A stretch of DNA of 58,283 nt, taken from Polyangiales bacterium. GTDB lineage: Bacteria > Myxococcota_A > Polyangia > Polyangiales > Ga0077539. Positions 9,395-55,476 of this stretch are shown one piece after another (positions within the stretch are counted from its first letter, which is position 1; each line of letters opens with the position of its first letter). The position numbers were made by a program, and so were the translations under genes. The notes below the pieces were generated by a model, which saw nothing but the letters and a program-made list of their open reading frames with translations, searched no databases and was not told the origin of the DNA. The stretch lies in assembly GCA_046351555.1 (NCBI GenBank), contig JAXLYI010000006.1, positions 1 to 58,283 on the forward strand. The letters run 5' to 3'.

Positions 9395-9478
9395 TGCGAG
9401 CGAAAGGACTTGAACCTTCACGAGTGTTACCCCACTGGAACCTGAATCCAGCGCGTCTGCCAATTCCGCCACGCTCGC
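9395..9478 (-). tRNA. tRNA-Leu (anticodon CAG)
   Basis: Reverse complement reads GCGAGCGTGGCGGAATTGGCAGACGCGCTGGATTCAGGTTCCAGTGGGGTAACACTCGTGAAGGTTCAAGTCCTTTCGCTCGCA. The 7-bp acceptor stem GCGAGCG/CGCTCGC, anticodon stem-loop CTGGA-TTCAGGT-TCCAG, long variable arm and T-loop GGTTCAAGTCC are all present. Confidence 0.85.
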
Positions 9479-11596: not shown

Positions 11597-11682
11597 GGTT
11601 CGCGGGCGACCATACCACCGCCCGGGCGCGCGGAAAGGGGGCGTTGCGGGCGCCGGCGCGGGCGACGAAACTCATCGCCGCC

Positions 11683-15039: not shown

Positions 15040-15846
15040 CTAGAACGTCCCCGCCACGGCCACGCCGTCGGGGCCCACGCCGAAGTTCAACCGCGCCATC
15101 GGGGCGGGCTCCTCCACGCGGCGCGGGTGGGTGAGCATCCACACCGCGCCCACGGCCGCGCCGACGCCCGCGACGAGGCCCACCACGCCGACGATCCGGT
15201 ACGTCTCGCCCTGGCTGCGCAGCGAGTCCTGCAGCGGGCGCGGCGCGGCGGGGTTGGCGTAGGTGCTGGCGTTGTCGATGGCCACGCCGAGGAAGCCCGC
15301 GCCGACGGCCGTGAGCACGAGCGAGCCGCCCGCGAGGGCCCACGCGGCGGGCGACACCTGCGTCGTGACGCGCACGGGCGCGGGCGGCGGCGGGCACTCG
15401 CGCTGCGGCGGCGGCGGCGGGCACGCGGGGCACGCGACCTGGCGCGGCGGCGAGGGCTGGAGGTCTTGCTCGCCCATCTGCTGCGCGAGGGTGCGCGCGC
15501 GGCCGGCGAGCTCGGCGTCGGGGGCCGGGTCGGTCATCGCGAGCAGGTCGCGGAGCTGCGCGACGGCGCCGGCGTTGTCGCCCGCCCGCATGCGCGCCTC
15601 GGCCGCGTTGTAGAGCGTGAAGGGGTGCGGCCGCAGGCGGAACGAGCGCTCGAACGCCACCGTCGCCTCGGCGTACTGCCGCCGCTGGAAGAGCTGGAGG
15701 CCCTCGCGGTAGCGCGCGCGCGCCTCCTCGACGCGGGCCGGGTCTTCGCCCGCGGGCGTGGGCTGCTGCTGCGCGAGCGCGGGGGCCGCCGCGAGCGTGA
15801 GCGCGGCGGCCAGGGGGAGGGCGAGGGCGGTGGACTTCGGGCGCAC
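15040..15846 (-). CDS. Secreted TPR-like protein with a C-terminal membrane anchor
   Basis: Signal peptide MRPKSTALALPLAAALTLAAAPALA. TPR-like helices (YAEATVAFERS...YNAAEARMRAG). A Cys/Pro-rich segment CPACPPPPPQRECPPPP followed by a TM helix. Confidence 0.5.
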   Translation of the reverse strand: MRPKSTALALPLAAALTLAAAPALAQQQPTPAGEDPARVEEARARYREGLQLFQRRQYAEATVAFERSFRLRPHPFTLYNAAEARMRAGDNAGAVAQLRDLLAMTDPAPDAELAGRARTLAQQMGEQDLQPSPPRQVACPACPPPPPQRECPPPPAPVRVTTQVSPAAWALAGGSLVLTAVGAGFLGVAIDNASTYANPAAPRPLQDSLRSQGETYRIVGVVGLVAGVGAAVGAVWMLTHPRRVEEPAPMARLNFGVGPDGVAVAGTF

Positions 15847-40527: not shown

Positions 40528-41775
40528 CTACACCGTCGCGGGGCGGGGGCGGAGCGCGCGCGCATACCGCACGACCTCGGGCGTCGCGGCGTATGCGCGC
40601 ACCGCGCCGCCGGCGAACGCGCGCCAGCCTGACGGCGCCGCCATGAGCGCTGCGGCCACCGCCGCCACCGGGAACGCCGCGAGCGCGTCGCCGCGCGCCG
40701 GGGTGAGCTCCTCCTCGCTCCCGTCGAAGAGCCCGCGCCGCCGCGCCACGTCGGCGAGCGCCCGCGCGACGTCGCGCCGCTGCCCCCTCGCCCGCGCCGC
40801 CGCCAGCAGCGCCTGCAACGCCATGTGCGTGCGCACGCCCGCGCGGCCGGTGGACACGCCGCCCGGGGCGCGGCCGAGGCTCACCGCGACGAGCAGCGCC
40901 GGGAGGTTGAGCCCGGCGGCGAGCGCGTTGCCCGTCTCGACGAGGCGGGGATTGCCGTCGATGAACCAGGGCCCCCCGGCGCCGTCGAGGATGAAGTCCA
41001 GCGAGAGGCCGCCGTGCCACCCGAGGCGCGCCCCGAGGCGCTCGACGTGCTCGCAGACCACCGCCGCGTCGAGCGACTCCTTGGCGATGTCGCCGCCGCC
41101 GACGCCCTCGCGGCGCTGGACGCACGCGTGCAGCCCCGCGAGCCGGCCTCGGTCGAACACGGCCTGCGCGCGCCCGAGCGCCCCCTCGACGAGCCGCTGC
41201 ACGACCGCGCCATCGCCGAGCGCCCCGCGGAGCGCGACGACGGCCGCGTCGAGCCCGCGCGCGTCGTCGACGCGGAAGGTGCCCGCGGTCGCGGTGCCGA
41301 ACGCCGCTTTCACGTACACCGGCAGCGGGCGCGCGGCGCGGCGGAGCGCGGCCTCGTCGAAGGCGACCTCGGTCGGCGGCGCGGGCGCCCCGAGCTCGGC
41401 GAGCAGGCCCGCGAAGGCGACCTTGCTCTGCACGCGTTCGAAGGCGTCGAAGTCGGGCAGGGCGAGGGCCGCATGCGCCGCGAGCTCGTCGCGCACGGCG
41501 GCGAAGAGGTAGGCTTGCTCGTGGGCGGGGTAGAGCGCGTCGAAGGCGCCGCCGCGCAGGGCGTCGCGCGCCGCCGCGAGGTAGCCCGCGGGGTCGTCGC
41601 CGAAGCGCGGCGCCGGGCGGACGCGCGCGCACCGCGAGGAGAAGCGCGCGAGGCAGAGGGGCGCGCCGTCGAGCACCTCGACCCGGCAGCCGGCGAGGCC
41701 GAGCGCGGTGAGCGACTCGCGCGCGGAGAGGCTCGACCCCTCGGACATCAGCACCCGGACGCCCGCGAGGTTCAT
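40528..41775 (-). CDS. ATP-grasp domain protein
   Basis: ATP-grasp fold hallmarks (VYVKAAFGTATAGTFRV, VVQRLVEG, SLDFILDGAGGPWFIDGNPRLVETG). Start trimmed to MNLAGVRVLM. Confidence 0.7.
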   Translation of the reverse strand: MNLAGVRVLMSEGSSLSARESLTALGLAGCRVEVLDGAPLCLARFSSRCARVRPAPRFGDDPAGYLAAARDALRGGAFDALYPAHEQAYLFAAVRDELAAHAALALPDFDAFERVQSKVAFAGLLAELGAPAPPTEVAFDEAALRRAARPLPVYVKAAFGTATAGTFRVDDARGLDAAVVALRGALGDGAVVQRLVEGALGRAQAVFDRGRLAGLHACVQRREGVGGGDIAKESLDAAVVCEHVERLGARLGWHGGLSLDFILDGAGGPWFIDGNPRLVETGNALAAGLNLPALLVAVSLGRAPGGVSTGRAGVRTHMALQALLAAARARGQRRDVARALADVARRRGLFDGSEEELTPARGDALAAFPVAAVAAALMAAPSGWRAFAGGAVRAYAATPEVVRYARALRPRPATV

Positions 41776-42974: not shown

Positions 42975-44030
42975 TCAGCGCCCGCGCGCGCAGGCCCCGC
43001 AGGCAAAGCGCCCCTGGGCGTGGGGCACGCAGCGCTCGCACGCGAGGTGGAGCCGGTCGTCGCAGAGGGCCGGCCGCGCCGTCGCGCCCCCGCAGAGCTC
43101 GCAGGCCAGCAGGTCGAGCGCCTGCGCCCCCGCCGGGAGCGTCACCCGCAGCTCGCGCTCGGCCTTGCGCCGCCGCAGCCGCAAGCGCACGCGCACCGCC
43201 GGCAGGAGCGCCCCCACCATCGCCACCGGGGCGGCCTCCACCTTCGGCGTGTACCGCAGCACCACGTCGCGCAGCCGCGCGTCGCGCTCGGCGACGACCG
43301 CGGCCGCGCGCGCCGCGAGGGCCGCGGCGTCCACCTTGCGCCGCCCCGCGCCCAGCTCCGCCACCAGGCCGGCGAAGTACTCCGTCATGCGCGCGTGGTC
43401 GCGCGCGTGGCGCCGCTCGATCGCCGCCAGCGGCTCCGCGGTCGCCGCCTCCAGCGCGGCGCGCACGCGCGCCGGCAGCGCGGCCGTGAGCGGCGCGAAG
43501 TCACCCGCCGCGGGGCGGAGCCCGCCGACGCCGCGCGCCGGGTCGAGCAGGGCCGTGACGCGCGCCTCGGGCTCGCCCCCGTCGGGGCCCACCGCCACGT
43601 CGAAGGCGCCCTCGTAGCGGTCGTCGGCCTCCACCGACCAGCCCACCGTCGCGCGGAGGTACGGCGCCTCCAGCGACGCCGCGTCGACGACGTCGGCGAG
43701 CCCGTTGCGCACCACCAGCCGCGCGGCCAGCGAGGTCGCCTGCGACGCCTTCGGCGCGTCGACCTCGGGCGCCGCCACCGCCCACGGCACCCCCGCCCGC
43801 GCCGACACGGTGAGCGCCTCGAGCAGCGGCGACCCGATGCCGCACGCGACGGCTGCGCCGTCGGCCGGCGACGCCGCGAGCGCCACCTCCTCGGGCAGCG
43901 CGAGGGCCCTCGCAAGCTCGGCCGGCAGGAGCGCCTCGACGCGGCCCTCGCGCGCGTCCACCAGGGCCCCGCGCGCGGCGAGGGCGCGGGCGGCGAAGTC
44001 GAGCGGGTCGGGGAGGTCGGCGGCGCTCAC
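42975..44030 (-). CDS. Hypothetical protein with a C-terminal Cys-rich zinc-ribbon, translationally coupled to the SNF2 helicase
   Basis: GTG start overlaps the helicase TGA stop (GTGA). C-terminus reads LLACELCGG...ALCDDRLHLACERCVPHAQGRFACGAC, with CxxC pairs. Confidence 0.6.
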   Translation of the reverse strand: MSAADLPDPLDFAARALAARGALVDAREGRVEALLPAELARALALPEEVALAASPADGAAVACGIGSPLLEALTVSARAGVPWAVAAPEVDAPKASQATSLAARLVVRNGLADVVDAASLEAPYLRATVGWSVEADDRYEGAFDVAVGPDGGEPEARVTALLDPARGVGGLRPAAGDFAPLTAALPARVRAALEAATAEPLAAIERRHARDHARMTEYFAGLVAELGAGRRKVDAAALAARAAAVVAERDARLRDVVLRYTPKVEAAPVAMVGALLPAVRVRLRLRRRKAERELRVTLPAGAQALDLLACELCGGATARPALCDDRLHLACERCVPHAQGRFACGACARGR

Positions 44031-46708
44031 GCTTCGAAGTCCCCCCCGAAGAGCGCCTCGTCGAGGCTGCGGGTCTTCTCGTAGCGGCCTCGGGCGGCGA
44101 GGAGCTCGGCGGCGAGGCGGTCGAAGGTCGCGTCGACCTCGGCGTCGGTCTTCGCGCGGGCCACCGACTGGACGAGCCAGTCCTCGAGGTCGCGCTCCTC
44201 GGCGAGGTTGCCGAGCACCATGTCCATCTCGCCCACCACGAGCTGGAAGAGCTGCACGCGGCGGTCGAGCACGTCGAGGACGCGCTCCTCGATCGTGTCC
44301 TTCGAACAGAGGTTGTAGACGTGCACCTCGCGGGTCTGCCCCATGCGGTGCAGGCGGCCGATGCGCTGCTCGATGGCCATGGGGTTCCAGGGGAGGTCGT
44401 AGTTGACGAGGACGTTGCAGTGCTGGAGGTTGTGGCCCTCGCTGCCGGCCGCGGTGGCGACCATCACCACGGCCCCGCCCGCGCGGAAGCGCTCGAGCGC
44501 CGCGGCCTTCTCCCGCGCGTCGAGCCCGCCGTGGAAGGCCACCGCCGCCACGCCCGCCCGCTCCACCGCCGCCACCACCTCGTCGAGCGTCTCGCGGTAC
44601 CGCGTGAACACCAGCGCCGGCTCGCGCCGCGCCGCCACCACCTGGAGGAGCGCCGCCGCCTTGCCCGACGCGCCCGCCGCCGTGGCGAGCCGCTCGATCA
44701 CCCCGAGCTTCTCGCGGACCTCCTTCTTGTCCGCCCCCTTCGCCTTCTCGCGCATCCGGGCGACGGTGGCCCGCACCGCGCGCGGCGACGAGCCCGCCTC
44801 CAGCAGCAGCGACGTGGCCGCGAGCTGGAGCCCCGCGTCCTCGTGGTGGATCCGCACGAAGGCCAGCACCATCGCGTAGAGCGCGCGCTCGTCGTCGGAC
44901 ATCGGCACGGCGACGGTGGTGACGAAGCGCGGCGGCAGCGCGAGGCCCGACTGGGCGCGGGTGTTGCGCACCATCACCTCGGCGAGCAGCGCGCGGAGGG
45001 CCTCGCGGTCCTTCGGGCGCGTCGGGTCCTTCGGGTCGACGAAGCGCTTGCGGAAGGCCGCCGGCGTGTCGAACTGCCCGGGCCGCAGCAGCGTGACGAG
45101 GTTGTAGATCTCCTCCAGGTCGTTCTCCACCGGCGTCGCCGTGACCAGGAGGAGGAAGCGCTGCTTGAGCCCGACGACGAGCTTGTAGCCCATGGTCGCG
45201 CGGTTCTTGATGTGGTGCGCCTCGTCGACGATCACCACGTCCCAGGGGTGCGCCTGCACCACCGGCGCGTGGCGCGCGGCGCGCGCGAGGGAGAGCGACG
45301 CCACCACCACCCCGGGCCCCGACCAGAAGCCCTCCGGGTCGTCCTTCGCGCGCGGGTCGTCGGTGGTGCGGGCGGCCACCCCCGCCTTCTGCGCGAGCTC
45401 CCCGGCCCACTGCGGCACCAGCGACGCCGGGGCGAGCACCAGCGCGCGCCGGGCCATGCCCCGCACCTGGTACTCGCGCAGCACCATCATCGCCTCCACC
45501 GTCTTCCCGAGGCCCACCTCGTCGGCCAGGATCCCTCGGCCCCGCAGCGCGCGCAGCACGCGCCGCACCGTCTCCGTCTGGTAGCGGTGCGGGACGACGT
45601 CGCGCATCGTCGCCACCGCCAGCAGCTCGTCGAACTGCGCCGCCGACGCGAGCCGTTGCGCGTCGAGCGCCAGCGCCACCGCGCCGAGCGGCGACGGCGG
45701 CGACGCCAGCACCGCGGCGAAGCGGGCGACGTCCAACGTCGGCAGCGCGCGGGCCGCGGGCGCGAAGGCCGGCGCCTCCGGGAGTGAAGGCGCGGCGGGG
45801 GCCTTCGGCGCAGCGGGCGCGGGCGCGGCGGGAGCGGGCGCAGCGGAAGCCACGGGTGCGGCGGAAGCGGCGGGCGCAGCGGAAGCCACGGGCGGGCGGC
45901 GCACAAGCAGGTCCCGCACCTCGCGGCGCTGGAGGAGCTCGCGCACGCGCCGCTCGAGGAGGGCCTTCGGCAGCCGCCCGAACTCCCCCGCCGGCAGCCG
46001 CGCGAAGGAGGCCGCGTCGCGCACCGACTGGGCGATCCGCTCGGCGAGGCGCGCGGGGTTGTTCACCGCGAGGCCCGCGTCGGCGAGGACGGCGACCGCC
46101 TTCTCCGCGGTGAGCCGGTGGGGCTTGCAGAGCGCCATCGCGGCGGCCAGCAGGTCGCTGCCGGTGAGGTGATCGGCGGCGTGGCGGGCGCCGAGCAGCG
46201 CCCGGAGCGTCGCGTCGTCGTCCGCGGGGGGCGGCTCCGTGGGCGGGGCCTTCGCGCGGCGCGACGGTGCCTTCACCCGTTCGGGCGTTGGGATGGGGAG
46301 CACCGGCATCCCCGCCGCCCCCCGCACGAGCGAGTGCCCGCGCGCGAGCGGGTCGACCGCGGCGGCCTTCACCTCCCAATAGCGCCGCTCGTACTCGCCC
46401 GCCCGCGCCGGGTCGTCGACGATCTGCGCGCGGAGCGCCATCAGCCAGAGCGCCGCGTCGGGGCCCTGTTGGAGGTCGACGGCGAGGGCGGTCTGGGGGC
46501 GACCGTGGGGCGGCCGGGCAAAGAAGTGCTCGACGCCAGCGTGCTGCTGGTTGTCCTCGGTCGACCGCGCGACGAGCGCGACGCGCCGGCAGTCGCACTC
46601 GGGGAGCGGGCAGTAGAAGTCGAAGACGTGGGCGACGCCGACGTCCGGGAGCGTGACGGAGATGGACCAGCCCCGCGGGTCGAGGCGCTGCCACGCGATC
46701 AGCGACAC
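44027..46708 (-). CDS. SNF2-family (RapA/HepA-like) DNA-dependent ATPase/helicase with a ~340-aa uncharacterised N-terminal region
   Basis: Motif I ADEVGLGKTVEAM, motif II VVIVDEAHHIKN, motif III LLLVTATPVEN, and helicase-C motifs VATAAGSEGHNLQ and QRIGRLHRMGQ. Confidence 0.85.
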   Translation of the reverse strand: MSLIAWQRLDPRGWSISVTLPDVGVAHVFDFYCPLPECDCRRVALVARSTEDNQQHAGVEHFFARPPHGRPQTALAVDLQQGPDAALWLMALRAQIVDDPARAGEYERRYWEVKAAAVDPLARGHSLVRGAAGMPVLPIPTPERVKAPSRRAKAPPTEPPPADDDATLRALLGARHAADHLTGSDLLAAAMALCKPHRLTAEKAVAVLADAGLAVNNPARLAERIAQSVRDAASFARLPAGEFGRLPKALLERRVRELLQRREVRDLLVRRPPVASAAPAASAAPVASAAPAPAAPAPAAPKAPAAPSLPEAPAFAPAARALPTLDVARFAAVLASPPSPLGAVALALDAQRLASAAQFDELLAVATMRDVVPHRYQTETVRRVLRALRGRGILADEVGLGKTVEAMMVLREYQVRGMARRALVLAPASLVPQWAGELAQKAGVAARTTDDPRAKDDPEGFWSGPGVVVASLSLARAARHAPVVQAHPWDVVIVDEAHHIKNRATMGYKLVVGLKQRFLLLVTATPVENDLEEIYNLVTLLRPGQFDTPAAFRKRFVDPKDPTRPKDREALRALLAEVMVRNTRAQSGLALPPRFVTTVAVPMSDDERALYAMVLAFVRIHHEDAGLQLAATSLLLEAGSSPRAVRATVARMREKAKGADKKEVREKLGVIERLATAAGASGKAAALLQVVAARREPALVFTRYRETLDEVVAAVERAGVAAVAFHGGLDAREKAAALERFRAGGAVVMVATAAGSEGHNLQHCNVLVNYDLPWNPMAIEQRIGRLHRMGQTREVHVYNLCSKDTIEERVLDVLDRRVQLFQLVVGEMDMVLGNLAEERDLEDWLVQSVARAKTDAEVDATFDRLAAELLAARGRYEKTRSLDEALFGGDFEA

Positions 46709-46776
46709 GCGTCAACCGCTACCACACCCCCAACCGGCGCCGCGAACCGAAACGGGAGGCGATCCCTGAGGCGCTC

Positions 46777-46960
46777 TGCGCCGACCCCGTGTCACGGGGC
46801 GACCGGTTCCGGGAGCGGTCCGCGCCGACCCCACCCCACCGGGCGACCGGTCCCGGGAGCGGTCTGCACCGACCCCGTCTCATGGATCGACCGGTTCCGG
46901 GAGTGGTTCGCGCCGACCCTGACCATCGCGCGACCGGTTCCGGGAGCGGTCGGCCGATGG
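46777..46960. repeat. Tandem array of about 4.5 copies of a 44-nt unit carrying the hairpin GACCG-GTTCCGGGAG-CGGTC, immediately upstream of the SNF2 gene
   Basis: Units begin at 46799, 46843, 46887 and 46930, with a partial unit before 46799. A ~33-nt conserved core CGACCGGTTCCGGGAGCGGTCYGCRCCGACCCY is followed by ~11 variable nt. Confidence 0.65.
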
Positions 46961-47099
46961 GAGCGTCAGCGCGATACCCACCCCGCCCGTCCCACCGCAG
47001 TGCGGGTTGACCGTCTGGCACCCCGGCGCCTCCAACGAGCACTCGGCAAACCGCTGCGCGTGAGTCGGCCGTGGGAAGGTGGGGACGCCTCGATGGGCC

Positions 47100-47245
47100 G
47101 GTCGTCGGGGTTCTCCAGCGCGACCCCCGCGGCGACGAACCGGTAGGACGGTGAAGCGCCGCACCGTCTCCCGCGTGTTGGGCGCGTACACCTTCCCGTA
47201 GCTCCGCTCGGAAGCATCATCGGCGTGATCCCCATGCAGGGCGAG
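47100..47245 (-). pseudogene. Roughly 140-bp fragment duplicating an internal 3'-region segment of the methyltransferase gene (copy of 51476-51615)
   Basis: About 95% nucleotide identity to 51476-51615. Translates to ERSYGKVYAPNTRETVRRFTV...FVAAGVALENPDDR, the same peptide as in the methyltransferase C-terminal region. Confidence 0.6.
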
Positions 47246-47319
47246 CGCACCAAAATCGCTTGAATTGCAGCCTCGCGGCGGGGTTGCCAGTTGCAGCCCA
47301 TGGGGCCACCCCAGACGCA

Positions 47320-50300
47320 GGGTCATGGGGCCGGGGAGAGGCGAGGCGTCACCCGTTGGTAACCCGGAGACGCCGCCTCGGCGTCGAGGGCCTCGAGGAG
47401 GGGCGCGGAGCGACCCGACGACGTCTCTTGCTGGATCATGGGGCCACCTCGGTGACGTCGGCGACGACGATCCCGGTGTTGCTCCTCGCCGCCAACGTCG
47501 CCAAGTTCGATCTCGCGACGACGCGCGCGAGGGTGCGAGTGCACCTTCGGCTGCGGCGCGCTCGGCGGCGGCGACGTTACGTTCGGCTTCTGCCGCGGGC
47601 AGGTACGTCTCGCCGTCATCGAAGTCGAACGCCGTTCTTCACAGGTCCACCGCGCTCTGCGCCAGCGCACGTCGTCGAACATCGCCAGACCCGCCTCTTC
47701 CTCCTGCTCATCGACGCGCGCGAAGTCGTCGATGATCAGCAGGTCCACCGACGACAGCGACGCCATCTCCGCGTCCCGCGAGTTGTCCAGCCGGCTCTGC
47801 CGCAGGCGCCGCAGCATCGCGTCGGCGCGCCGAAGCACCTGGTAGCCGTAGCGGAGACGCCATCCGCGAGATGCTTCGGCGCGAGGGCTCGCCAGCTCGC
47901 TCAGCACGCGCGCCTCGTAGGAGACCTTCTTCGTCCCACGCCTCCGGCGCATGCCCGGGTCGAGCCCGGCCTCGCGGCGCGCAGCCGCGCCCGACTCGCG
48001 GCGCGAGACCCGTCGCTCAGATCGTCAGCAGCACGTCCTCGACGGCCATGTCCTTCTCGGCGCCGTGAGGCCGCCTGGGCGCGCGTACGATCAAGCGTCC
48101 CAGCCGCAGCCGCTTGAGCACCGAGACCGCTCGGGCAAGAGGGCGCGCGGCGTCATCGCGGGTCCCCCTTGCGCTCGCTCGACGCGCCGGTGCGGAAGTG
48201 CTCAGCCGACCTCGCGAAGCGCGGGCGGAGCGCCACCACCTGCCGTCGCGCCGGCCGGCGTGCCCGGCGCCTGGGCCTGCTTGAGCATGCGGCCGAGCCG
48301 CGTGACGTCCACCACGTTCGAAGGCGAGCGCGTTGGAGACGCTCGACGCGCCCTGTCGCCGTGGGCGTCGCACAGCGCATCGAGCGTACGCCTGGCGCAT
48401 GCGCGTCCACGGCAGGGCCCTCCGACACCGCTCGGCGTACCGCCGATGTGGTCGCCGCGTCGGCGCGCCCTCGCATGCACCGCGTCGACGCTAGCACGCG
48501 AAGTCCGCCTTGCCCTCGGGTAGTCAGCGCGGTCGTCGTGCGCTTGCCGGCGCGGTGCGGACGTGCGCCTTGATCAGCTCGTGCCGAGGTACGCGGACGT
48601 CGTGCGGTCGACACCCGCACCGACTGGCCGATCTAGCGAGACCACCTCGCTCTGGAGGCTCCCTGCTGGAGATGCCGGACCGCGCGGATCGCCGCGCGGT
48701 CGCCGGGAAGGCGGGTGAGCTGCTGAGCAAGCACTCGCGGCGCGCGCTCGGCGCGCCGCGTCGATCGAGGCGATCGTCGCCTGCGCGCGCGACACGATGG
48801 GCGTCGCGCAGGCCCCGGCTGGAGGGCAGGGCGCGGGTACGGCACGTCGTGTCCGAGATGCTCCGGCACCGCGAGAGGTCGGGAGGTCGACCAGCGTAAG
48901 CTCCGCGCGCTGCTGGAGTCGCGCCCCGAGCTCGGCGCGATGGCGCGGTGGGTGGGGCTGGTGACGACCGGGGTGCTCCTCGGCCGTCGGCGACCCGCTC
49001 GACTTCCACCACGCGGGCGCCTACGAGAGGAAGGCGTGCGGGCTCAACCCCTCAAGGGCACGACAACGGCACGGCCGCGCGCGGCGGGGCTTCATCACCC
49101 GCGCGGCTCCGCGTGCGCGCGCGCAAGTACCTGGCCACGTATTCCAGTGCTGCGGTGGAAGGCCGCGACCGCGCGACATGCGCCTGAGTCGAGCGCCGCC
49201 GGAGCTGGCGCGCAAGGGCAAGGTCTCCGCGCTGGTGGCGCTGATGCGCAAGGCCGTCAAGCGCGCCCTCTGGCACCTGCGCCGTGGGCAGGACTACGAG
49301 GCGGGCAAGCTCTTCGATCTGCGTCGACTCACGCTCACGCCCCGGCGCGAGGCCACGCTCATCACCGAGTCCGACGCGGGCGGCGGTACCGTGCCCGCCG
49401 ACGCACGACGATGCGACGACGACGGCGCCCGCGCGCGATGGCGCGTCGGGCGCGGCGGCCGCGTCCGGAGGCGACGGCGACTAACGCGACGAAGGCCACG
49501 ACGAAGGCCGCGACGAAGGCGGCGACGAAGGCCACGACGAAGATCCGCGACGGGCGACGACGCCGCGGCGGTGAGGCCGCGCGCGACGACGCATCGAAGG
49601 CGACGCGCGCGCACGCGAAGCGCGAGGCCCGGGGCGGCAAGCGACGGGGATCGCGCGAGGAGCCGACGGCGCGGCACCGGAACGCGGGCCGCGTGCGGGC
49701 GCGTTCGATGGCGCCGCCCCGGGCGCTGCTTCGGCAGGCGCTGGGGCGCATCGCCCGCAGCCGCGGGAGCAGGTCGTCGCCCGCCCTCGTCGGCCGCGTC
49801 ACTCATCTGCCCGAGGTCGTGCGGGGTGACGACGGCGTCGCGCACGTGCTCGCCGAAGCGAACGGGCGTCGGCACGGGGGCCGGCGGCGCTGGCGCCGTG
49901 CTCGCACAGCAGGCCCAGCGCGCCGGGGTCGTCGGTGCCGCGGCGTCCCGGCCACCGCCTCGCGCAGCGCCTCGGCGCCTAGAGGTCGAGCGCCACGATG
50001 GAGCGCGCCACGGCGTTGCCCAGGTTGCGCCCGGCGTCGAGCCAGCGCGCCAGCTCGCGTCGATGCCGGGCGCCTCGGCGCGCAGCCGGTCGCGCCCCTT
50101 GAGCCCCTGGCCGCGCGGCGCTCGGCCACCAGCTCGGCGCGGTGCTCGCGTGCTCGGAACGACCGTCGGCGGCCCCAGGATCGCGCGTGCGGGCGACCTC
50201 CGTACGCGCCGTCCAACAGCTGCACGCGCGCGTCGTCGGCGGCCATCGTCAGTGCGGCCCGCCCACGCCGGCGGCACCGGTAGAGGTTGGTGTCGAGCCG

Positions 50301-51130
50301 CGCGAAGGCCGTCCGGTCGATCGCCACGGGCACGACCTGCTCGGGCGGGGCATCGGGTCGGGCAGCGCCAGCAGCTTCGTGCGCCCTCGGCGAAGGCGCC
50401 GACGGTGCGATCGGGCAGGCGCGGGTGGGGCCGCCGGCGCCACCTCGCGCAGGAACTCCCCGAGCTCGCGGTTGCCCTGCGCCACGTCGCGATCGCGCCT
50501 GCCAGGAAGCGGTCGCGACAGGTAGCGACATCGCGCGCTCCACGCGGCCTTCTCCGCGTGCGCCCGCACCGTGCAGAGCCGCGCCTGCGTGCAGAAGGCC
50601 GCGGAGAGCTCGACCACCGCGGGGTGGAAGCCGCGCCTCAGCACCGGTGCGCGGGTTGTCGAAGAGCCACTGCCGCGGCGACCCTCCGAAGAAGGCGTGG
50701 CGCGGATCGGGAGCGGCGCAGCGAGGCGCGTCGGTCCCAGACGCACTCGGCGAAGAGCATCCGCGACCAGGAGAGCACCATCACGAAGAGCCACAGCCCG
50801 CGGCGCCCGCGGCCTCGCCGCCGACGAAGGCCAGTCGACCTGCGCCTGCTCGCCGACGAGGGTCTCGGTGCGCAGGAAGGCGCCCGCGGCGAGGCTGGCG
50901 CGCCGCGCGACGCCCCGCAGCGTGCGCACCGAGCCCTTGTAGCGGGGCGAGCATGTCGGCCGCGGCGCGCAGCGGTAGCGCGCCGGTCTGCGCGATGCCG
51001 AAGGACTCGCTCCCGATCCACGCGCAGAGTCGAGGACAGCGCGCCGGCGTCGACGCGAGGGCGCCGACGCGCGAAGAGCGTGTCGGGACCTTCATGCGCC
51101 CGAACGGGCGCGAAGGCACTCAACGCGGCG
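47320..51130 (-). mobile_element. Heavily degraded IS21-family element (istA transposase and istB helper remnants with many frameshifts), plus ~1.7 kb of unassignable decayed sequence
   Basis: IstB-like remnant at 47323-47952 (LRRLRQS...VDLLIIDDFARVDEQEEEAGLAMFDDV). IstA-like remnants between about 49800 and 51120 in different frames (LVGEQAQVDWP; LFVMVLSWSRMLFAE; LDTNLYRCRRRGRAALTMAADDARVQLL). No intact ORF. Confidence 0.5.
49486..49542. repeat. 12-nt tandem repeat (GCGACGAAGGCC-like), about 4.75 copies
   Basis: Reads GCGACGAAGGCCACGACGAAGGCCGCGACGAAGGCGGCGACGAAGGCCACGACGAAG. Confidence 0.7.
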
Positions 51131-51218
51131 CGCGGATTTTTCGAGGCTCTGCCGATTCCTACTTGCCTATGACAGCGCACGGGCTCTACCTCCCGCACGA
51201 ACCATCCCCCCGTCAGGA

Positions 51219-53344
51219 TCAGTACGGCCCGAGGAAGCGCTCGCCGTTGAAGTGTATCATGTGGGTCGGGGCGTCGGCGCACCACACCTCGGTAAGCACC
51301 GGCACCCGCGACATCTCCCGCTCCTTCGCGTAGCGGGCGCGGAGCGTCTCCACCGTGGCCAGCCACCGCGCGAGCGCGCCGCTCCAACGCGCCGTCCCAT
51401 AGCGTTGGAGCACGGCGAGCACCCCCGGCTCGATCTGGTAGACCGCCTTGGGGCTGTTGGTCGGGCGCGACCGGTCGTCGGGGTTCTCCAGCGCGACCCC
51501 CGCGGCGACGAACCGGTGGACGGTGAAGCGCCGCACCGTCTCCCGCGTGTTGGGCGCGTACACCTTCCCGTAGCTCCGCTCGAAGAACTGCATCATCGGC
51601 GTGATCCCCATGAGCGGCGCCGACGCCTCCGCCCAGGGACGCTCCGCCGTCAGGTCGACGAGCGCGAGGAGCGTGAGCGCCGACCGCTCGTTCTGCTGCT
51701 CGCGCGGCAGTCCGATGGCCTCCAACACGGACAGGGCCTCGTCGATGCGACGCCTCGCCGCCACCGGGTCGATGGCCGTTGGTTTCTTGTCTCCCATACG
51801 AAACAACACCTCGTCCACGGCGCGATCGACCGCCCCTTGCGTGGCGAGCGACTTCCCCGCGGCATCGCCGAGCGCCTCGAGCTGTGCGCGGGTCGGGTAC
51901 GGCATCTTGCGGAGGTCGGTCGCGTTCACCTGCGTGTGCCCGCTCCAGGCGCGGAAATGCGCGTCGACGAGCGTCGAGTTGAGCCACACCGTCAGCCCGC
52001 GCGCGAGCCGCTCGGGCACCCCAGCGCCGTCGCAATGGAACACGTTGAGGTGGTTTTCGAACCCGACGCGCCCCCGCGCGACCGCCGCCGGTTCGTAGAG
52101 GGCGGCGACGATGCGGCGCGGCTCCTCCTTCGAGGAGAAGCGCTTCGTCAAGACGTAGGTGCCCTCCGGCAGCAGGAGGGCGGCGGTCTCCGCGTTGTCG
52201 TCGATCGCGTTGGGCTTGCGCGATCCCTCGCGCGGCCACGCCACCCCTCCGCCCGCGAGGTGCAGCGGGTAGATGAGCGGGGCCGTGGTGCGCGCCGGTC
52301 GGTCGTGGAGGTGGGCGCGGGCGCGGAAGTCCACCACGCGGCCGGTCGACGCCTGGAGCCCGAGGTCGGCGAGCGTCGAGCGGAACGTCGCCATCCGCTC
52401 GCTCACGGCGCCGCCGAGTCCGTCGGACACGATGTGGACGATGCGTTCGGGGTCGTCGGGTCGCACGACCTCCGCGAAGGGAACCTCCCGCACGAGCGGC
52501 GCAGGGTCCTCGGGGCAGGTCGCCGACGAGACCGTGACGCGCCCGCGCGGCGCCCCGTCCTTCACCGCGTGGAAGATCACGGTCTCCTGGAGCACGTCGT
52601 CGTCGGCGAAGGCGCGGTCACGCCGCTCGAAGACGTGGAGCCGCAGGAGCCTCATGCGCGCGAGGAAGCGCTCGCGGAAGGGGCGGAAGTAGGGGCCGTT
52701 GCAGAAGCTCCGCGGGGTGATGGCGACCAAGCTCGCCGCCGGGCTCGAGCAGGTCGACCGCGACCGCGAGGAAGGCCGTGTGGAGGTTGCTCGTCTCGAG
52801 GCCGATCCGCTGGAGCGCGCGCCTCGGGCGAGTCCGCGCGGATCTTGTGTTACGGCGGGTTGAGGATCGCGGCGTTGAAGGCGCCTCGCTGCGTCGCGAA
52901 GAGGCCGCCGTCGAGCGCGCCCACCCCCGAGGCGATGAAGTTTTCGACGTGGACCCGGGCCTCGACCCGGAGGCCGGCGGCCGCGCCGTGCTCCTCGCAC
53001 GCGGTGAGCGTCTCGCGCAGGTACCGCGCGAGCGTCGGGTCGACCTCCCACGCGTCGACCGTGATGGATGTCGGGCGCGCGGGACGTCCGGCGAACGCCT
53101 CGACGGCAGCGGCGGTGAGTGCGCCGACACCAGCGCCCGCGTCGAGCAGGCGGACCTCCGCCGCGTCGGTTCGCAGGAGCGATGCCATGAACGACGCCAC
53201 CGCCGCGGGGGTCATGTACTGCCCGAGCTCGGCCCGCCGCGCCGGGGAGAGCTGGCGCATGGCGTCGACGCGCGCCACGTCGGCGACCTCGCCGGGGTGG
53301 CGGCCCGATGCGAGGAGGGAGGTGGCGAAGCCGGGTTTGCGCAT
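51219..53344 (-). pseudogene. Eco57I-family (gamma-class, NPPY) N6-adenine DNA methyltransferase, inactivated by an in-frame TAA and two frameshifts
   Basis: Motif I LLDAGAGVGAL and motif IV FNAAILNPP are followed directly by TAA. The downstream conserved blocks KIRADSPEARA / ALQRIGLETSNLHTAFLAVAVDLLEPGGEL / VAITPRSFCNGPYFRPFRERFL sit in three different frames. The junctions imply an indel in a GCGCGC run and a 1-nt insertion. Confidence 0.65.
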
Positions 53345-53407
53345 GGGGAGCGGCCGAGGCGCACGCTGCCCGAGGCGGGGCCGCGGGTCAACGGATCGGC
53401 GCGCCCC

Positions 53408-54451
53408 TCACCAGGTGTCGGGGAAGTTGCCGCGCGACATCGGCTGCGGCGGCGGCTTCGGCACGGCGACCGCGTCGGCGGCCTTCTTGCGGATCACCTG
53501 CGTCCCCTCCTGCTTGAGCGTCTTGATGGGGCCCTTCACCCACGAGCCCGGGCCCGACACCGCGCCGATCGCGCCCTGCACGCCGTCGCCGATCTTCTGC
53601 CCCATCTCGGGCGACGCGCCGAGGTACTCCGCGCCCGCGCCGATCGCCTGCGACGTGTACGTGCGCTGCGGCACGCCCGTCCAGATCTGCTTCACCGCGG
53701 CCCAGCCCCGGTCGCCCGCGTTGGCGATGAGCGCGCCGCCCGCCACCTGCCCGACGCCCGTCGGCGTCGACGCGAGCCCGACGCCCACCGTCCCCTGCCC
53801 CACCGCGCCCGCGAGGTCGATGCCGCCCGCGACGCGCGGGTACGCCGCGCGGAAGTCCTGGTAGCGCCCCCACGTCTGCCGCATCCCGTACTGCGCCAGC
53901 GACTCGTTGGGACGGCGCGCGAACGACGACGGCTCCTGCGCCGGCTGCTGCGGCTGCGCGGGCTGCTCAGGGGGCTGCGCCGCGGCCTGCTCCTGCGGCG
54001 TCTCGGGCTTCGGCTCGGGGTTCGGGTCGCTCTTCGGCTTGCCGTCCTCGCCGACCTCGTTGGTGGGCTCCGTCCCCTCGTCGAACACCGCCTTGCCCTT
54101 GGTGTTCTTGTCGTTCATCTCGTGCTCGTCCTTGTGACGAATCACGTTCTGGCCCTCGGCGCGCACCGTGGGGGAGTGCTCGACGGGCTCGGTCTTGCCG
54201 CCGCCCGCGTGGGTGCCCGACACCACGCCCTCGCCCGTGCCGCCCTCGTCGCCCTCGACGCCCTGGATGTAGCTCTGCTTCGTGAAGACGCACTGGTTGG
54301 TGGCCCGCACCGTCGGCGTCACCATGCAGGCGTTCTGGTACACCGACACGATCTGGTAGGGCACCGGCGCCGTCGGCGACTTGCAGACGTCGGGGTAGCT
54401 GCTCACGACGAGCGCGCGGGGCGTCTTGCGGGTGAGTTCGAGCTCGCTCAC
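53408..54451 (-). CDS. T6SS PAAR-like (DUF4150) effector with a Pro/Glu/Gln-rich linker and a glycine-zipper-rich C-terminal domain
   Basis: N-terminal DUF4150 pattern YPDVCKSP...GDEGGTGEGVVSGTHAGGGKTEPVEHSPTVRAEGQNVIRHKDEHEMNDKN. C-terminal GxxxG-rich segment (AGAVGQGTVGVGLA, GVGQVAGGALIANAG, AIGAGAEYLGA, GDGVQGAIGAVSG). Confidence 0.7.
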   Translation of the reverse strand: MSELELTRKTPRALVVSSYPDVCKSPTAPVPYQIVSVYQNACMVTPTVRATNQCVFTKQSYIQGVEGDEGGTGEGVVSGTHAGGGKTEPVEHSPTVRAEGQNVIRHKDEHEMNDKNTKGKAVFDEGTEPTNEVGEDGKPKSDPNPEPKPETPQEQAAAQPPEQPAQPQQPAQEPSSFARRPNESLAQYGMRQTWGRYQDFRAAYPRVAGGIDLAGAVGQGTVGVGLASTPTGVGQVAGGALIANAGDRGWAAVKQIWTGVPQRTYTSQAIGAGAEYLGASPEMGQKIGDGVQGAIGAVSGPGSWVKGPIKTLKQEGTQVIRKKAADAVAVPKPPPQPMSRGNFPDTW

Positions 54452-55476
54452 AGCGGGGCCTCCTGCTGGTCGGGGTCGTTGAAGTGCATGCGCAGCTCGG
54501 CCACGCGCACCGCGGGCTCCTCACGCACGGTCAACCGCGAGGTGACGTAGACGAGGCGCCGCGCGAGGTCGATCACCACGGTGTCGAGCTCCATCGGGCG
54601 CATCTCGATCTCGCCCGACTCGTAGCGGAGCAGCGTGAACATCCCGTGGCCCGGCAGCCGGCAGCGCAGCGGCCCCTCGGGGAGCAGGCCCTCGAGCGCG
54701 ATGTCGGCGTCGCTGCGGAGCATCCCGCGCACGGTGAGGTCGGGGTGCGCGCCGTTCCAGTACTCCGAGCGGAAGTCCTTCGGGAGCACGGGCCAGGTGT
54801 GCTTCACCCACGCCTCGTCGTAGGTGCCTGCGAGCGCGAGGCGCGGCGCCCACGCGCGCCCGATGGGGCCGTAGCCCACCGGGGCGGGCTCGGCGAAGGG
54901 GTCGGTGAGGGGCGCGTCGGCCGACTCGATGCGCGGGGCTTCGAAGCGGTCGACGTCCTCCACCGACCAGGGGCGCGCGAAGCCCACGCCCACGGGGTTG
55001 CTCGCGCACGCCTCCTCGCGGTCGCCGCGGCGCGCGACGCCGCCGTGCGCGAGCTCGTAGCAGAGCGGGACGCGGTCGACGGGCTCCGGGTCGGTGAGCC
55101 GCCACGCCTCGCCCTCGCGCACCCACCAGCGTGGGCCCGTGACGCGCAGACGCTTCTCCACCGGACCCACGCGCACGAGCGTCTCCCACGACGGGAGCGC
55201 CTCGCCGTTGGGCGCGCAGGCGTCGCCCACCACCGTCACGTCGGTGAAGGGCTTGTAGGGCGCGAGGTCGCTCTCGAACACCGGGCTCGACGCGCCGGGC
55301 TCGCCGCGGAACACCTCCGCGGTCTGGAGGGGCGTCTGCTCGCGCGCGAGGCGCAGCACCTTGCCGTGCTCCAGGCGCAGCGTCATGCGGCTGACCACGA
55401 CGTGGAAGGGTTCGTCGTCGACGGTGTGCGACTCGAACACCAGCATCGGGAAGGGCGTGTGGTTGCGGGGCCTCAC
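54448..55476 (-). CDS. DUF2169-family T6SS adaptor protein
   Basis: 342-aa protein whose stop overlaps the DUF4150 effector start by 4 nt. Size, position and sequence feel match DUF2169 adaptors that pair with DUF4150 effectors. Confidence 0.6.
   Translation of the reverse strand: MRPRNHTPFPMLVFESHTVDDEPFHVVVSRMTLRLEHGKVLRLAREQTPLQTAEVFRGEPGASSPVFESDLAPYKPFTDVTVVGDACAPNGEALPSWETLVRVGPVEKRLRVTGPRWWVREGEAWRLTDPEPVDRVPLCYELAHGGVARRGDREEACASNPVGVGFARPWSVEDVDRFEAPRIESADAPLTDPFAEPAPVGYGPIGRAWAPRLALAGTYDEAWVKHTWPVLPKDFRSEYWNGAHPDLTVRGMLRSDADIALEGLLPEGPLRCRLPGHGMFTLLRYESGEIEMRPMELDTVVIDLARRLVYVTSRLTVREEPAVRVAELRMHFNDPDQQEAPL

What the first reader, a model, noticed from the sequence alone, without database searches (positions are those of the whole stretch)
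51219..53344. N6-adenine DNA methyltransferase with three independent inactivating lesions
Motif IV (NPP) is followed immediately by TAA where the conserved Tyr codon is expected. Within the next ~200 nt the conserved downstream blocks shift frame twice. The nearby 1.3-kb miaB, 2.7-kb SNF2 and 4.1-kb TPR genes are intact, so genuine pseudogenisation is more likely than sequencing error. The pattern fits loss of a modification enzyme after loss or change of its partner nuclease or defence function.
Basis: seen in the sequence. Interest (0 to 1): 0.55.

Follow-up and report, generated by a model that had tools for sequence, protein, structure and literature searches.

The report
Dead fused restriction–modification gene
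This is the wreck of a single gene that once encoded both a DNA methylase and a PstI-type restriction nuclease. It carries one stop codon, two frameshifts and a deletion of the nuclease core. These lesions are real mutations seen in several independent assemblies, so it is an ordinary, recently dead defence gene on a small acquired island.

Summary
On the minus strand (53344..51219) the reading frame ends at NPP-TAA, where Tyr of the NPPY motif belongs. It then shifts by -2 bp and by +1 bp within the next 125 nt.

The gene is not a stand-alone methyltransferase. It is a decayed copy of a widespread ~840-aa single-chain enzyme made of an N6-adenine methyltransferase, a PstI/BsuBI/SdaI-type wHTH domain and a PD-(D/E)XK nuclease. 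A fourth lesion went unnoticed: an in-frame 396-bp deletion that removes the nuclease core.

All four lesions recur without gaps in an ENA contig from a different haplotype. The three small ones also recur in three Logan assemblies. Sequencing error is therefore excluded.

Decay is recent: GC3 is 93-98%, there are no other indels against a 76%-identical intact homolog, and few conserved residues have changed.

The gene sits at the edge of a 10.4-kb island (42984-53401) that relatives of 93-97% nucleotide identity lack.

In 9 of 71 single-gene homologous loci the nuclease part alone is broken and the methylase part never is. This suggests the nuclease was lost first here too, though the sampling may be biased.

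This is a known kind of system and of low interest.

The parts
52853..53344 (-). N-terminal fragment of the methyltransferase (164 codons). It holds the AdoMet-binding motif I (LDAGAGVG, residues 67-74) and ends at N-P-P of motif IV. GenBank annotates it as a hypothetical protein, U0324_10270.
   Evidence: (Eco57I PF07669)
52850..52852 (-). Lesion 1: a TAA nonsense codon in place of the Tyr codon (TAC in L002) of the catalytic NPPY motif.
   Evidence: The same base is present in L001, L087, L088 and L089.
52814..52826 (-). Lesion 2: a 2-bp loss causing a frameshift. Its placement is ambiguous within this stretch. The simplest reading is one lost GC unit of the GCGCGCGC run at 52815-52822.
   Evidence: All homologs have 13 residues between KIR and LE.
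52726..52730 (-). Lesion 3: a 1-bp gain causing a frameshift. GAG CTT G GTC replaces GAG CTN GTC at the conserved GGEL-VAITP block.
51753..52725 (-). The rest of the methyltransferase and its target-recognition region, now in a third frame. Gene callers start a 503-aa ORF (U0324_10265, 'hypothetical') at TTG 52730.
51342..51752 (-). The BsuBI/PstI/SdaI-type winged-helix DNA-recognition domain of the nuclease half, complete.
   Evidence: PF17728, E 4e-48, positions 2-138 of 140; SdaI 2ixs residues 8-154
51291..51297 (-). Lesion 4: junction of an in-frame 396-bp (132-codon) deletion. It removes P0001 residues 685-816, which is the PD...ExK catalytic core.
   Evidence: Only positions 127-154 of 154 of PF06616 remain.
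51219..51293 (-). The retained C-terminal tail of the nuclease domain (TEVWCADAPTHMIHFNGERFLGPY) and the stop codon.
42984..53401 (.). A 10.4-kb lineage-specific island with the dead gene at one edge. It contains the RM pseudogene, a 4.1-kb segment with IS21 debris, 44-bp repeats, an SNF2 helicase gene and a 351-aa ORF. Four relatives of 93-97% nucleotide identity lack it.

Best explanation
The locus is a recently dead copy of a single-chain Type II restriction-modification enzyme. This enzyme is the fused form of a PstI/BsuBI-like two-gene system.

The intact ancestor was about 840 aa. It carried, in order:
- a gamma-class N6-adenine methyltransferase with its own target-recognition region (about residues 1-520);
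- an SdaI/PstI-type winged-helix recognition domain;
- a PD-(D/E)XK cleavage domain.

It would have methylated its site in host DNA and cut unmethylated incoming DNA.

Neither activity is possible in this genome. Translation from the ATG stops after 164 residues, before the catalytic Tyr. Two frameshifts scramble motifs V onward. The nuclease core is deleted.

The gene arrived on, or as part of, a 10.4-kb island inserted between a PAAR-like gene and a TIG-domain gene. All four lesions were already present before the sampled strains diverged.

Inferred and not shown: the in-frame nuclease deletion came first and left a harmless methylase-plus-wHTH protein. That protein then decayed once nothing depended on it.
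For: Identity and architecture:
- Pfam hits are Eco57I methylase, the complete BsuBI_PstI_RE_N domain and only the last 28 positions of BsuBI_PstI_RE.
- 7981 homologs were scored. The listed ones are mostly 820-860 aa and carry all three domains.
- P0001 matches an 840-position PADLOC Type II profile end to end. It also matches separate M (494-position) and R (317-position) profiles.
- SdaI (2ixs) matches the C-terminal third of P0001.
- Two-gene relatives have overlapping M-stop and R-start codons at the exact fusion point.

Lesions are pinned.

The lesions are real:
- L001 covers window 53055..51174 at 99.79% identity with 0 gaps.
- L087, L088 and L089 come from three SRA runs, match at 99.9-100% with 0 gaps, and cover the small lesions.
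- No intact protein closer than 76% identity appears among the listed hits.

The decay is recent:
- GC at third codon positions is 0.93-0.98 across most of the remnant (51300-52500), dipping to 0.87-0.88 at 51600-51750.
- There are no further indels against P0001.
- 2 of 98 family-invariant residues are changed, against a mean of 0.26 and a maximum of 2 in 116 intact members.

Constraint is relaxed:
- 3 of the 4 SNPs between the window and L001 are non-synonymous at conserved positions.
- There are 0 SNPs in the next 5.3 kb.

Island: L090-L093 join window 53402 directly to 42983/42971.

Nuclease-first order:
- 9 of 71 single-gene homologous loci carry lesions. All lie in the nuclease part and none in the methylase part.
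- P0103 is an intact 683-aa ORF with its own in-frame nuclease-core deletion and the same retained tail.
Against: - The order of events is not recorded in the sequence. An in-frame deletion has a 1-in-3 chance of arising by accident. In a fused enzyme the upstream stop alone removes both activities.
- The three small lesions are clustered (P about 0.01). A single mutational event, rather than gradual decay, cannot be excluded.
- The survey of homologous loci may be biased toward copies with a long intact methylase segment, because the 80 loci were ranked by match quality. Some of the 9 disrupted loci come from long-read MAGs and could contain errors.
- I could not inspect reads directly. Support comes from assemblies.
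- Specificity is unknown. CTGCAG is rare in the window (1 observed, about 13 expected). It is equally rare outside the island and in relatives lacking the island, so the depletion cannot be credited to this gene.
Confidence: 0.9

Rival explanations
1. The stop and the indels are sequencing or assembly errors, and the gene is intact in the organism.
For: The source is a MAG. The neighbouring 4.1-kb segment is frame-scrambled and holds a 139-bp copy of part of the gene that differs only by indels, a pattern typical of long-read error.
Against: Four independent assemblies reproduce the three small lesions base for base with zero gaps: ENA MEGAHIT contig L001 and Logan contigs from three runs. L001 also reproduces the 396-bp deletion. 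L001 is a different haplotype (SNPs and a 4.1-kb difference), so it is not the same consensus. All other long genes in the window are intact.
Confidence: 0.02
2. The interruptions are programmed. The gene is expressed through recoding, or it is a phase-variable restriction-modification switch.
For: The 2-bp loss lies in a short GC-dinucleotide run. Phase-variable restriction-modification genes are well known (established knowledge).
Against: - A TAA nonsense codon and a 396-bp deletion are not reversible.
- The net shift is -1, so the two frameshifts do not compensate each other.
- The GC run has only 4 units and the same length in all five assemblies.
- Homologs carry no conserved repeat tract at their lesion sites.
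Confidence: 0.02
3. The surviving 503-aa ORF (target-recognition region, winged helix and tail) has been kept as a sequence-specific DNA-binding protein without enzymatic activity.
For: - The ORF is long and open with very high GC3.
- The nuclease deletion is in frame.
- An independent in-frame deletion with the same retained tail exists in P0103.
Against: - In P0103 the methylase is intact, so that case argues for an orphan methylase, not a binding protein.
- The ORF lacks a canonical start context. Its TTG start was chosen by gene callers.
- In the L001 haplotype two invariant-type residues of the helix domain have changed (L->R and V->G in NERSALTLLAL), which fits the absence of purifying selection.
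- High GC3 is expected for any recently dead gene.
Confidence: 0.06
4. Same pseudogene, opposite order. An N-terminal truncating mutation killed methylase and nuclease together, and the nuclease-core deletion came later as neutral decay.
For: In a single polypeptide an upstream stop removes both activities at once, so no lethal intermediate arises (inference from the architecture). An in-frame deletion happens by chance one time in three.
Against: - In homologous loci the nuclease part is the only part found broken (9 of 9).
- Internal re-initiation downstream of the lesions would have produced a nuclease without a methylase, which should be toxic (inference).
- P0103 shows that the methylase-only intermediate exists.
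Confidence: 0.3

Closest known systems
PstI / BsuBI / AplI two-gene Type IIP restriction-modification systems (M followed by R, head to tail)
   Same: The methylase and nuclease families are the same. P0001 matches the separate M (494-position) and R (317-position) PADLOC profiles at E 4.5e-163 and 4.7e-137. The gene order is M then R. PMC3039593 lists BsuBI as head-to-tail. Nine related loci are two-gene versions with overlapping stop and start codons.
   Different: Here the two reading frames are fused into one polypeptide, and the copy in the window is dead. Its recognition sequence is not known.
SdaI restriction endonuclease (PDB 2ixs)
   Same: Both have an N-terminal winged-helix recognition domain followed by a C-terminal PD...ExK catalytic domain. 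P0001 residues 523-840 match SdaI 5-321 at E 4e-74.
   Different: The window retains only the equivalents of SdaI residues 8-154 and about 297-321. The catalytic core, including the PD and EAVK-type motif, is deleted. SdaI is not fused to a methylase.
Single-chain (Type IIC) restriction-modification enzymes made by gene fusion, such as the engineered RM.Eco29kI
   Same: Methylase and nuclease are in one polypeptide, derived from a head-to-tail two-gene system. PMC3039593 predicted natural fusions of systems such as BsuBI.
   Different: The domain order here is M then R, and the nuclease is PstI-type. Classical Type IIG enzymes (MmeI, BpuSI, Eco57I) have the nuclease at the N-terminus and cut at a distance. 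The PADLOC IIG profile matches only marginally (E 5e-4).
Orphan methyltransferases formed by loss of the cognate nuclease, and their later decay
   Same: The homolog survey shows only the nuclease part disrupted in 9 of 71 loci. The window shows a later stage, with the methylase also dead.
   Different: Here the partner is a domain of the same protein, so the loss is a domain deletion rather than a gene loss.

Membership tests
Fused methyltransferase + BsuBI/PstI-type nuclease (about 840 aa; PADLOC PDLC03359; PF07669+PF17728+PF06616) | End-to-end collinear similarity to full-length members | tested here: met
   The repaired 708-aa product aligns to P0001 at 76.6% identity with a single 132-residue gap. 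DNA homology to L002 spans window 53398..51216.
Fused methyltransferase + BsuBI/PstI-type nuclease (about 840 aa; PADLOC PDLC03359; PF07669+PF17728+PF06616) | One uninterrupted reading frame encoding all three domains | tested here: not met
   A stop at 52852-52850, -2 and +1 frameshifts, and a 396-bp deletion. The locus is a pseudogene of the family and not a functional member.
Gamma-class N6-adenine DNA methyltransferase (Eco57I-like, PF07669) | AdoMet-binding motif I (xDxGxGxG) | tested here: met
   LDAGAGVG at residues 67-74 of the first frame
Gamma-class N6-adenine DNA methyltransferase (Eco57I-like, PF07669) | Catalytic motif IV, N-P-P-Y/F | tested here: not met
   N-P-P is followed by TAA. 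All 116 aligned intact members have the aromatic residue at this position.
BsuBI/PstI/SdaI restriction endonuclease | N-terminal winged-helix recognition domain (PF17728) | tested here: met
   E 4.1e-48, profile positions 2-138 of 140; SdaI residues 8-154
BsuBI/PstI/SdaI restriction endonuclease | PD-(D/E)XK catalytic domain (PF06616) | tested here: not met
   Only profile positions 127-154 of 154 remain, at 19.2 bits against a cut-off of 27. P0001 residues 685-816 are absent.
BsuBI/PstI/SdaI restriction endonuclease | Recognition of CTGCAG-type sites | not testable with these tools
   CTGCAG occurs once, against about 13 expected. It is also depleted outside the island and in relatives lacking the island, so this says nothing about this gene.
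Type IIG enzymes (MmeI/BpuSI/Eco57I type) | N-terminal nuclease followed by methylase and recognition domain | tested here: not met
   The domain order is methylase, then winged helix, then nuclease. The PADLOC REase_MTase_IIG profile matches at only E 5e-4 over the methylase motifs.
Phase-variable restriction-modification gene | A long simple-sequence repeat whose length varies between cells or strains | tested here: not met
   The GC run has only four units and is identical in five assemblies. Homologs have no conserved tract.

The most novel reading that the evidence does not exclude
In this fused family the nuclease half is shed again and again at the boundary between the winged-helix and catalytic domains. 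This happens by frameshift, insertion or deletion, sometimes in frame with the last 24 residues kept. The result is working methylase-plus-winged-helix orphan enzymes. The window's gene would have passed through that stage before dying. If so, the boundary is a preferred breaking point of a self-disarming defence gene, and the retained helix and tail may have a role in the orphan methylase.
Probability: 0.3. Interest if true: 0.4.

Novelty: new member of a known kind. Interest (0 to 1): 0.18.

Why it matters
For this genome the result corrects the annotation. Two 'hypothetical proteins' (U0324_10265 and U0324_10270) are fragments of one dead restriction-modification gene, so no methylation or restriction should be expected from this locus.

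More generally it is a clean, dated example of how an acquired single-chain defence gene decays. It is present on a 10.4-kb island that relatives of 93-97% identity lack. It carries four disabling lesions, yet its codon usage is still pristine.

Together with the homolog survey, it illustrates the familiar rule that the nuclease goes first and the methylase follows. It does not open a new question.

Tried and rejected
- **Source genome in GTDB representatives.** It is not there; the best hit was 65-67% identical. The scan still supplied 80 homologous loci.
- **JGI metagenome scan spanning the stop codon, with N at the mutated base.** It found only a distant intact relative (L085, 68% identity). 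No intact allele of this lineage turned up.
- **Look-up of the 503-aa ORF by exact sequence.** It is not on record, so I could not test whether other assemblies carry the 4.1-kb segment.
- **Pfam on the six-frame translation of the 4.1-kb segment.** The first attempt failed on stop codons. The second gave almost nothing. Hand-joined fragments gave only sub-threshold rve, Mu-transpos_C_2 and IstB hits. IS21 identity rests on a short blastn hit to an annotated istA and on tblastn in three frames.
- **Designed phase-variation tract at the homologs' lesion hot spot.** Rejected, because there is no conserved homopolymer there.
- **CTGCAG depletion as a footprint of this enzyme.** Rejected as evidence. 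The depletion is equally present outside the island and in relatives without the island, and it is absent around the closest intact homologs.
- **Rfam scan of the window.** It found only a tRNA.
- **PADLOC on the island's other genes.** The SNF2 protein matches only generic SNF2 profiles, and the 351-aa protein matches nothing.

Full report
**1. The observation**

The window is 75% G+C, so long spurious ORFs occur on both strands. The periodicity of G+C identifies the real frames. Between 51300 and 52500, one minus-strand frame has 0.93-0.98 G+C at third positions across most of the stretch, dipping to 0.87-0.88 at 51600-51750. From 52800 to 53400 a different frame carries the signal.

- An ATG at 53344 opens 164 codons that end ...FNAAILNPP, followed by TAA at 52852-52850.
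- The conserved blocks continue in a second frame (LQRIGLETSNLHTAFLAVAVDLLEPGGEL).
- They then continue in a third frame (VAITPRSFCNGPYFRPF...) that runs to the stop at 51221-51219.

**2. What the gene is**

I joined the three frames and read the stop as Tyr, which gives a 708-aa product. Pfam finds three things in it:
- an Eco57I-type N6-adenine methylase domain;
- a complete BsuBI/PstI restriction-endonuclease winged-helix domain (E 4e-48);
- only the last 28 of 154 positions of the BsuBI/PstI catalytic domain.

A search of 5.8 billion proteins scored 7981 relatives. The listed ones are nearly all 820-860 aa and carry all three domains in one chain. The best intact one, P0001, is 840 aa and 76% identical.

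P0001 matches an 840-position PADLOC Type II profile from end to end. It also matches separate methylase (494 positions) and nuclease (317 positions) profiles. Its last third matches the solved SdaI endonuclease at E 4e-74.

Among 80 homologous loci from representative genomes, nine are two-gene versions. In these the methylase stop overlaps the nuclease start at ...ELF*/M.... This is exactly the point where the fused proteins read ...VLFxM.... The family is therefore a natural fusion of a head-to-tail PstI/BsuBI-type system. That outcome was predicted in PMC3039593, which lists BsuBI among head-to-tail systems. NCBI already names members 'BsuBI/PstI family type II restriction endonuclease'.

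**3. The lesions**

Alignment of the DNA with the intact homolog L002 and of the repaired protein with P0001 gives four lesions:
- TAC->TAA at the Tyr of NPPY.
- A 2-bp loss between 52814 and 52826, most simply one unit of a GCGCGCGC run.
- A 1-bp gain at 52726-52730.
- An in-frame loss of 396 bp (P0001 residues 685-816), with its junction at 51291-51297.

The last lesion removes the PD...ExK core. Against SdaI, only residues 8-154 and the C-terminal tail remain. Apart from these four lesions there is not a single indel across 2.1 kb.

**4. The lesions are real**

- ENA contig L001 is a MEGAHIT assembly from sample ERZ27248705. It matches window 53055..51174 at 99.79% with no gap, so it carries all four lesions.
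- L001 differs from the window by SNPs and lacks 4109 bp (47065-51173) next to the gene. It therefore represents another haplotype.
- Logan contigs from three sequencing runs (SRR26348422, SRR26348423, SRR14234088) match at 99.9-100% without gaps and cover the stop and the frameshifts.
- The window comes from a GenBank MAG of a Polyangiales bacterium, where the two pieces are annotated as hypothetical proteins U0324_10270 and U0324_10265.
- No intact protein closer than 76% appears among the listed hits.

Sequencing error is excluded as far as assemblies can show.

**5. Age and constraint**

Decay is recent:
- Codon-position G+C bias is undiminished.
- Only 2 of 98 family-invariant residues differ, against a mean of 0.26 and a maximum of 2 among 116 intact members.
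- Only 4 of 184 near-invariant residues differ, against a mean of 2.5.

Constraint appears relaxed. Of the four SNPs between the window and L001 inside the gene, three are non-synonymous at conserved positions: D/N in VEDF, and L->R and V->G in NERSALTLLAL. The next 5.3 kb, which holds the SNF2 gene and its neighbour, has no SNP at all. The numbers are small.

The three small lesions lie within 125 nt of a 2126-nt gene. If they were independent and uniformly placed, this clustering has a probability of about 0.01 (my calculation, 3r^2-2r^3). I cannot say whether it reflects one mutational event or chance.

**6. Genomic setting**

Upstream on the same strand lie:
- malate synthase;
- isocitrate lyase;
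- a DUF2169 protein;
- a Tox-PAAR-like protein.

Four contigs from relatives have these genes at 93-97% nucleotide identity: L090 from JGI, L091 from GCA_009612935.1, and L092 and L093 from Logan. They run from the end of the PAAR-like gene (window 53402) directly into window 42983/42971. The window therefore carries a 10.4-kb island, 42984-53401. In order, the island contains:
- the dead gene;
- a 4.1-kb segment with IS21 debris;
- a 44-bp tandem repeat;
- an SNF2 helicase gene;
- a 351-aa ORF.

Homology to the intact homolog's locus begins at 53398, which is at the island edge. I found no clear target-site duplication.

**7. Order of events**

In the 71 single-gene homologous loci, nine are disrupted:
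- four by frameshifts;
- one by a 220-nt insertion;
- two by core deletions;
- two by late frameshifts.

Every lesion lies in the nuclease part (P0001 residues 663-813) and none in the methylase part. Seven of the nine fall near residues 663-702, at the start of the catalytic domain.

P0103 is an intact 683-aa ORF with NPPY present. It has its own in-frame core deletion and the same retained 24-residue tail.

This pattern fits the well-known route in which the nuclease is lost first and an orphan methylase remains. It makes the same order likely here. Three caveats apply:
- The 80 loci were the best-scoring matches and may favour long intact methylase segments.
- Some of the disrupted loci are long-read MAGs.
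- In a fused enzyme an upstream stop alone would disarm both activities.

The hot spot is not a designed switch, since there is no conserved repeat at that place.

**8. Specificity**

CTGCAG occurs once in 58 kb. About 13 copies are expected from shuffles and from a fourth-order Markov model. It is also the most depleted six-base palindrome when summed over the loci with intact family members, though cyanobacteria drive that result. The depletion is just as strong outside the island and in L090, which lacks the island. It is absent around the closest intact homologs. It therefore cannot be assigned to this gene.

**9. Verdict**

The locus is a new, dead member of a catalogued family. Interest is low.

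Noticed in passing
window 42984-53401: This is a 10.4-kb island absent from four relatives of 93-97% nucleotide identity (L090-L093). Their sequences join the PAAR-like gene directly to the TIG-domain gene. Besides the dead gene, the island carries an SNF2 helicase (44027-46711) whose stop overlaps a 351-aa ORF with no family match. I did not establish whether these two form a defence module.
   Followed up: partly
window 47065-51173: This 4109-bp segment is absent from the otherwise 99.8%-identical contig L001, and the junction has only 2 bp of overlap. It holds an IS21 istA-like remnant spread over three frames (50890..49875), a weak istB-like trace and about 2.8 kb with no clear coding frame. 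I did not resolve whether the window gained it or L001 lost it.
   Followed up: partly
window 47098-47236 versus 51471-51613: This is a 139-bp copy of part of the dead gene's winged-helix region, located 4.4 kb away. It differs from the original by three small indels and no substitution. The indel-only pattern is unexplained. It could reflect error-prone repair, templated patching or local long-read error.
   Followed up: partly
window 46771-46951: A 44-bp tandem repeat of 4.1 copies at 77% match lies in the intergenic region just upstream of the SNF2 gene. It is also present in L001.
   Followed up: no
whole window; site at 15229-15234: CTGCAG occurs once, against about 13 expected. AGGCCT (6 observed, 26 expected), CAGCTG (1 observed, 7 expected) and ATCGAT (0 observed, 5 expected) are also scarce. 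The CTGCAG depletion extends to relatives lacking the island, so it points to some other, older restriction pressure in the lineage.
   Followed up: partly
loci L011, L016, L017, L019, L021, L036, L039, L042, L047; protein P0103: In homologs from unrelated phyla only the nuclease part of the fused gene is broken. Most breaks lie at the boundary between the winged-helix and catalytic domains. Three related cyanobacterial strains (L039, L042, L047) each carry a different lesion there.
   Followed up: partly
window 40788-41758: All 16 SNPs between the window and L001 outside the dead gene fall in this 1-kb stretch. The preceding 5.3 kb has none. This is either a hypervariable gene or strain mixing at the contig end.
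   Followed up: no
window 9524-11671 and 9395-9478: A 715-aa protein with a BrxC/BrxD-type ATPase domain (PF10923, E 3e-23) lies next to the only tRNA gene in the window. I did not examine any other BREX components.
   Followed up: no
window 53408-55476: A DUF2169 protein and a Tox-PAAR-like protein, a pair usually associated with type VI secretion, sit directly after the glyoxylate-shunt genes. No other secretion genes are in view. This arrangement is conserved in the relatives L090-L093.
   Followed up: no
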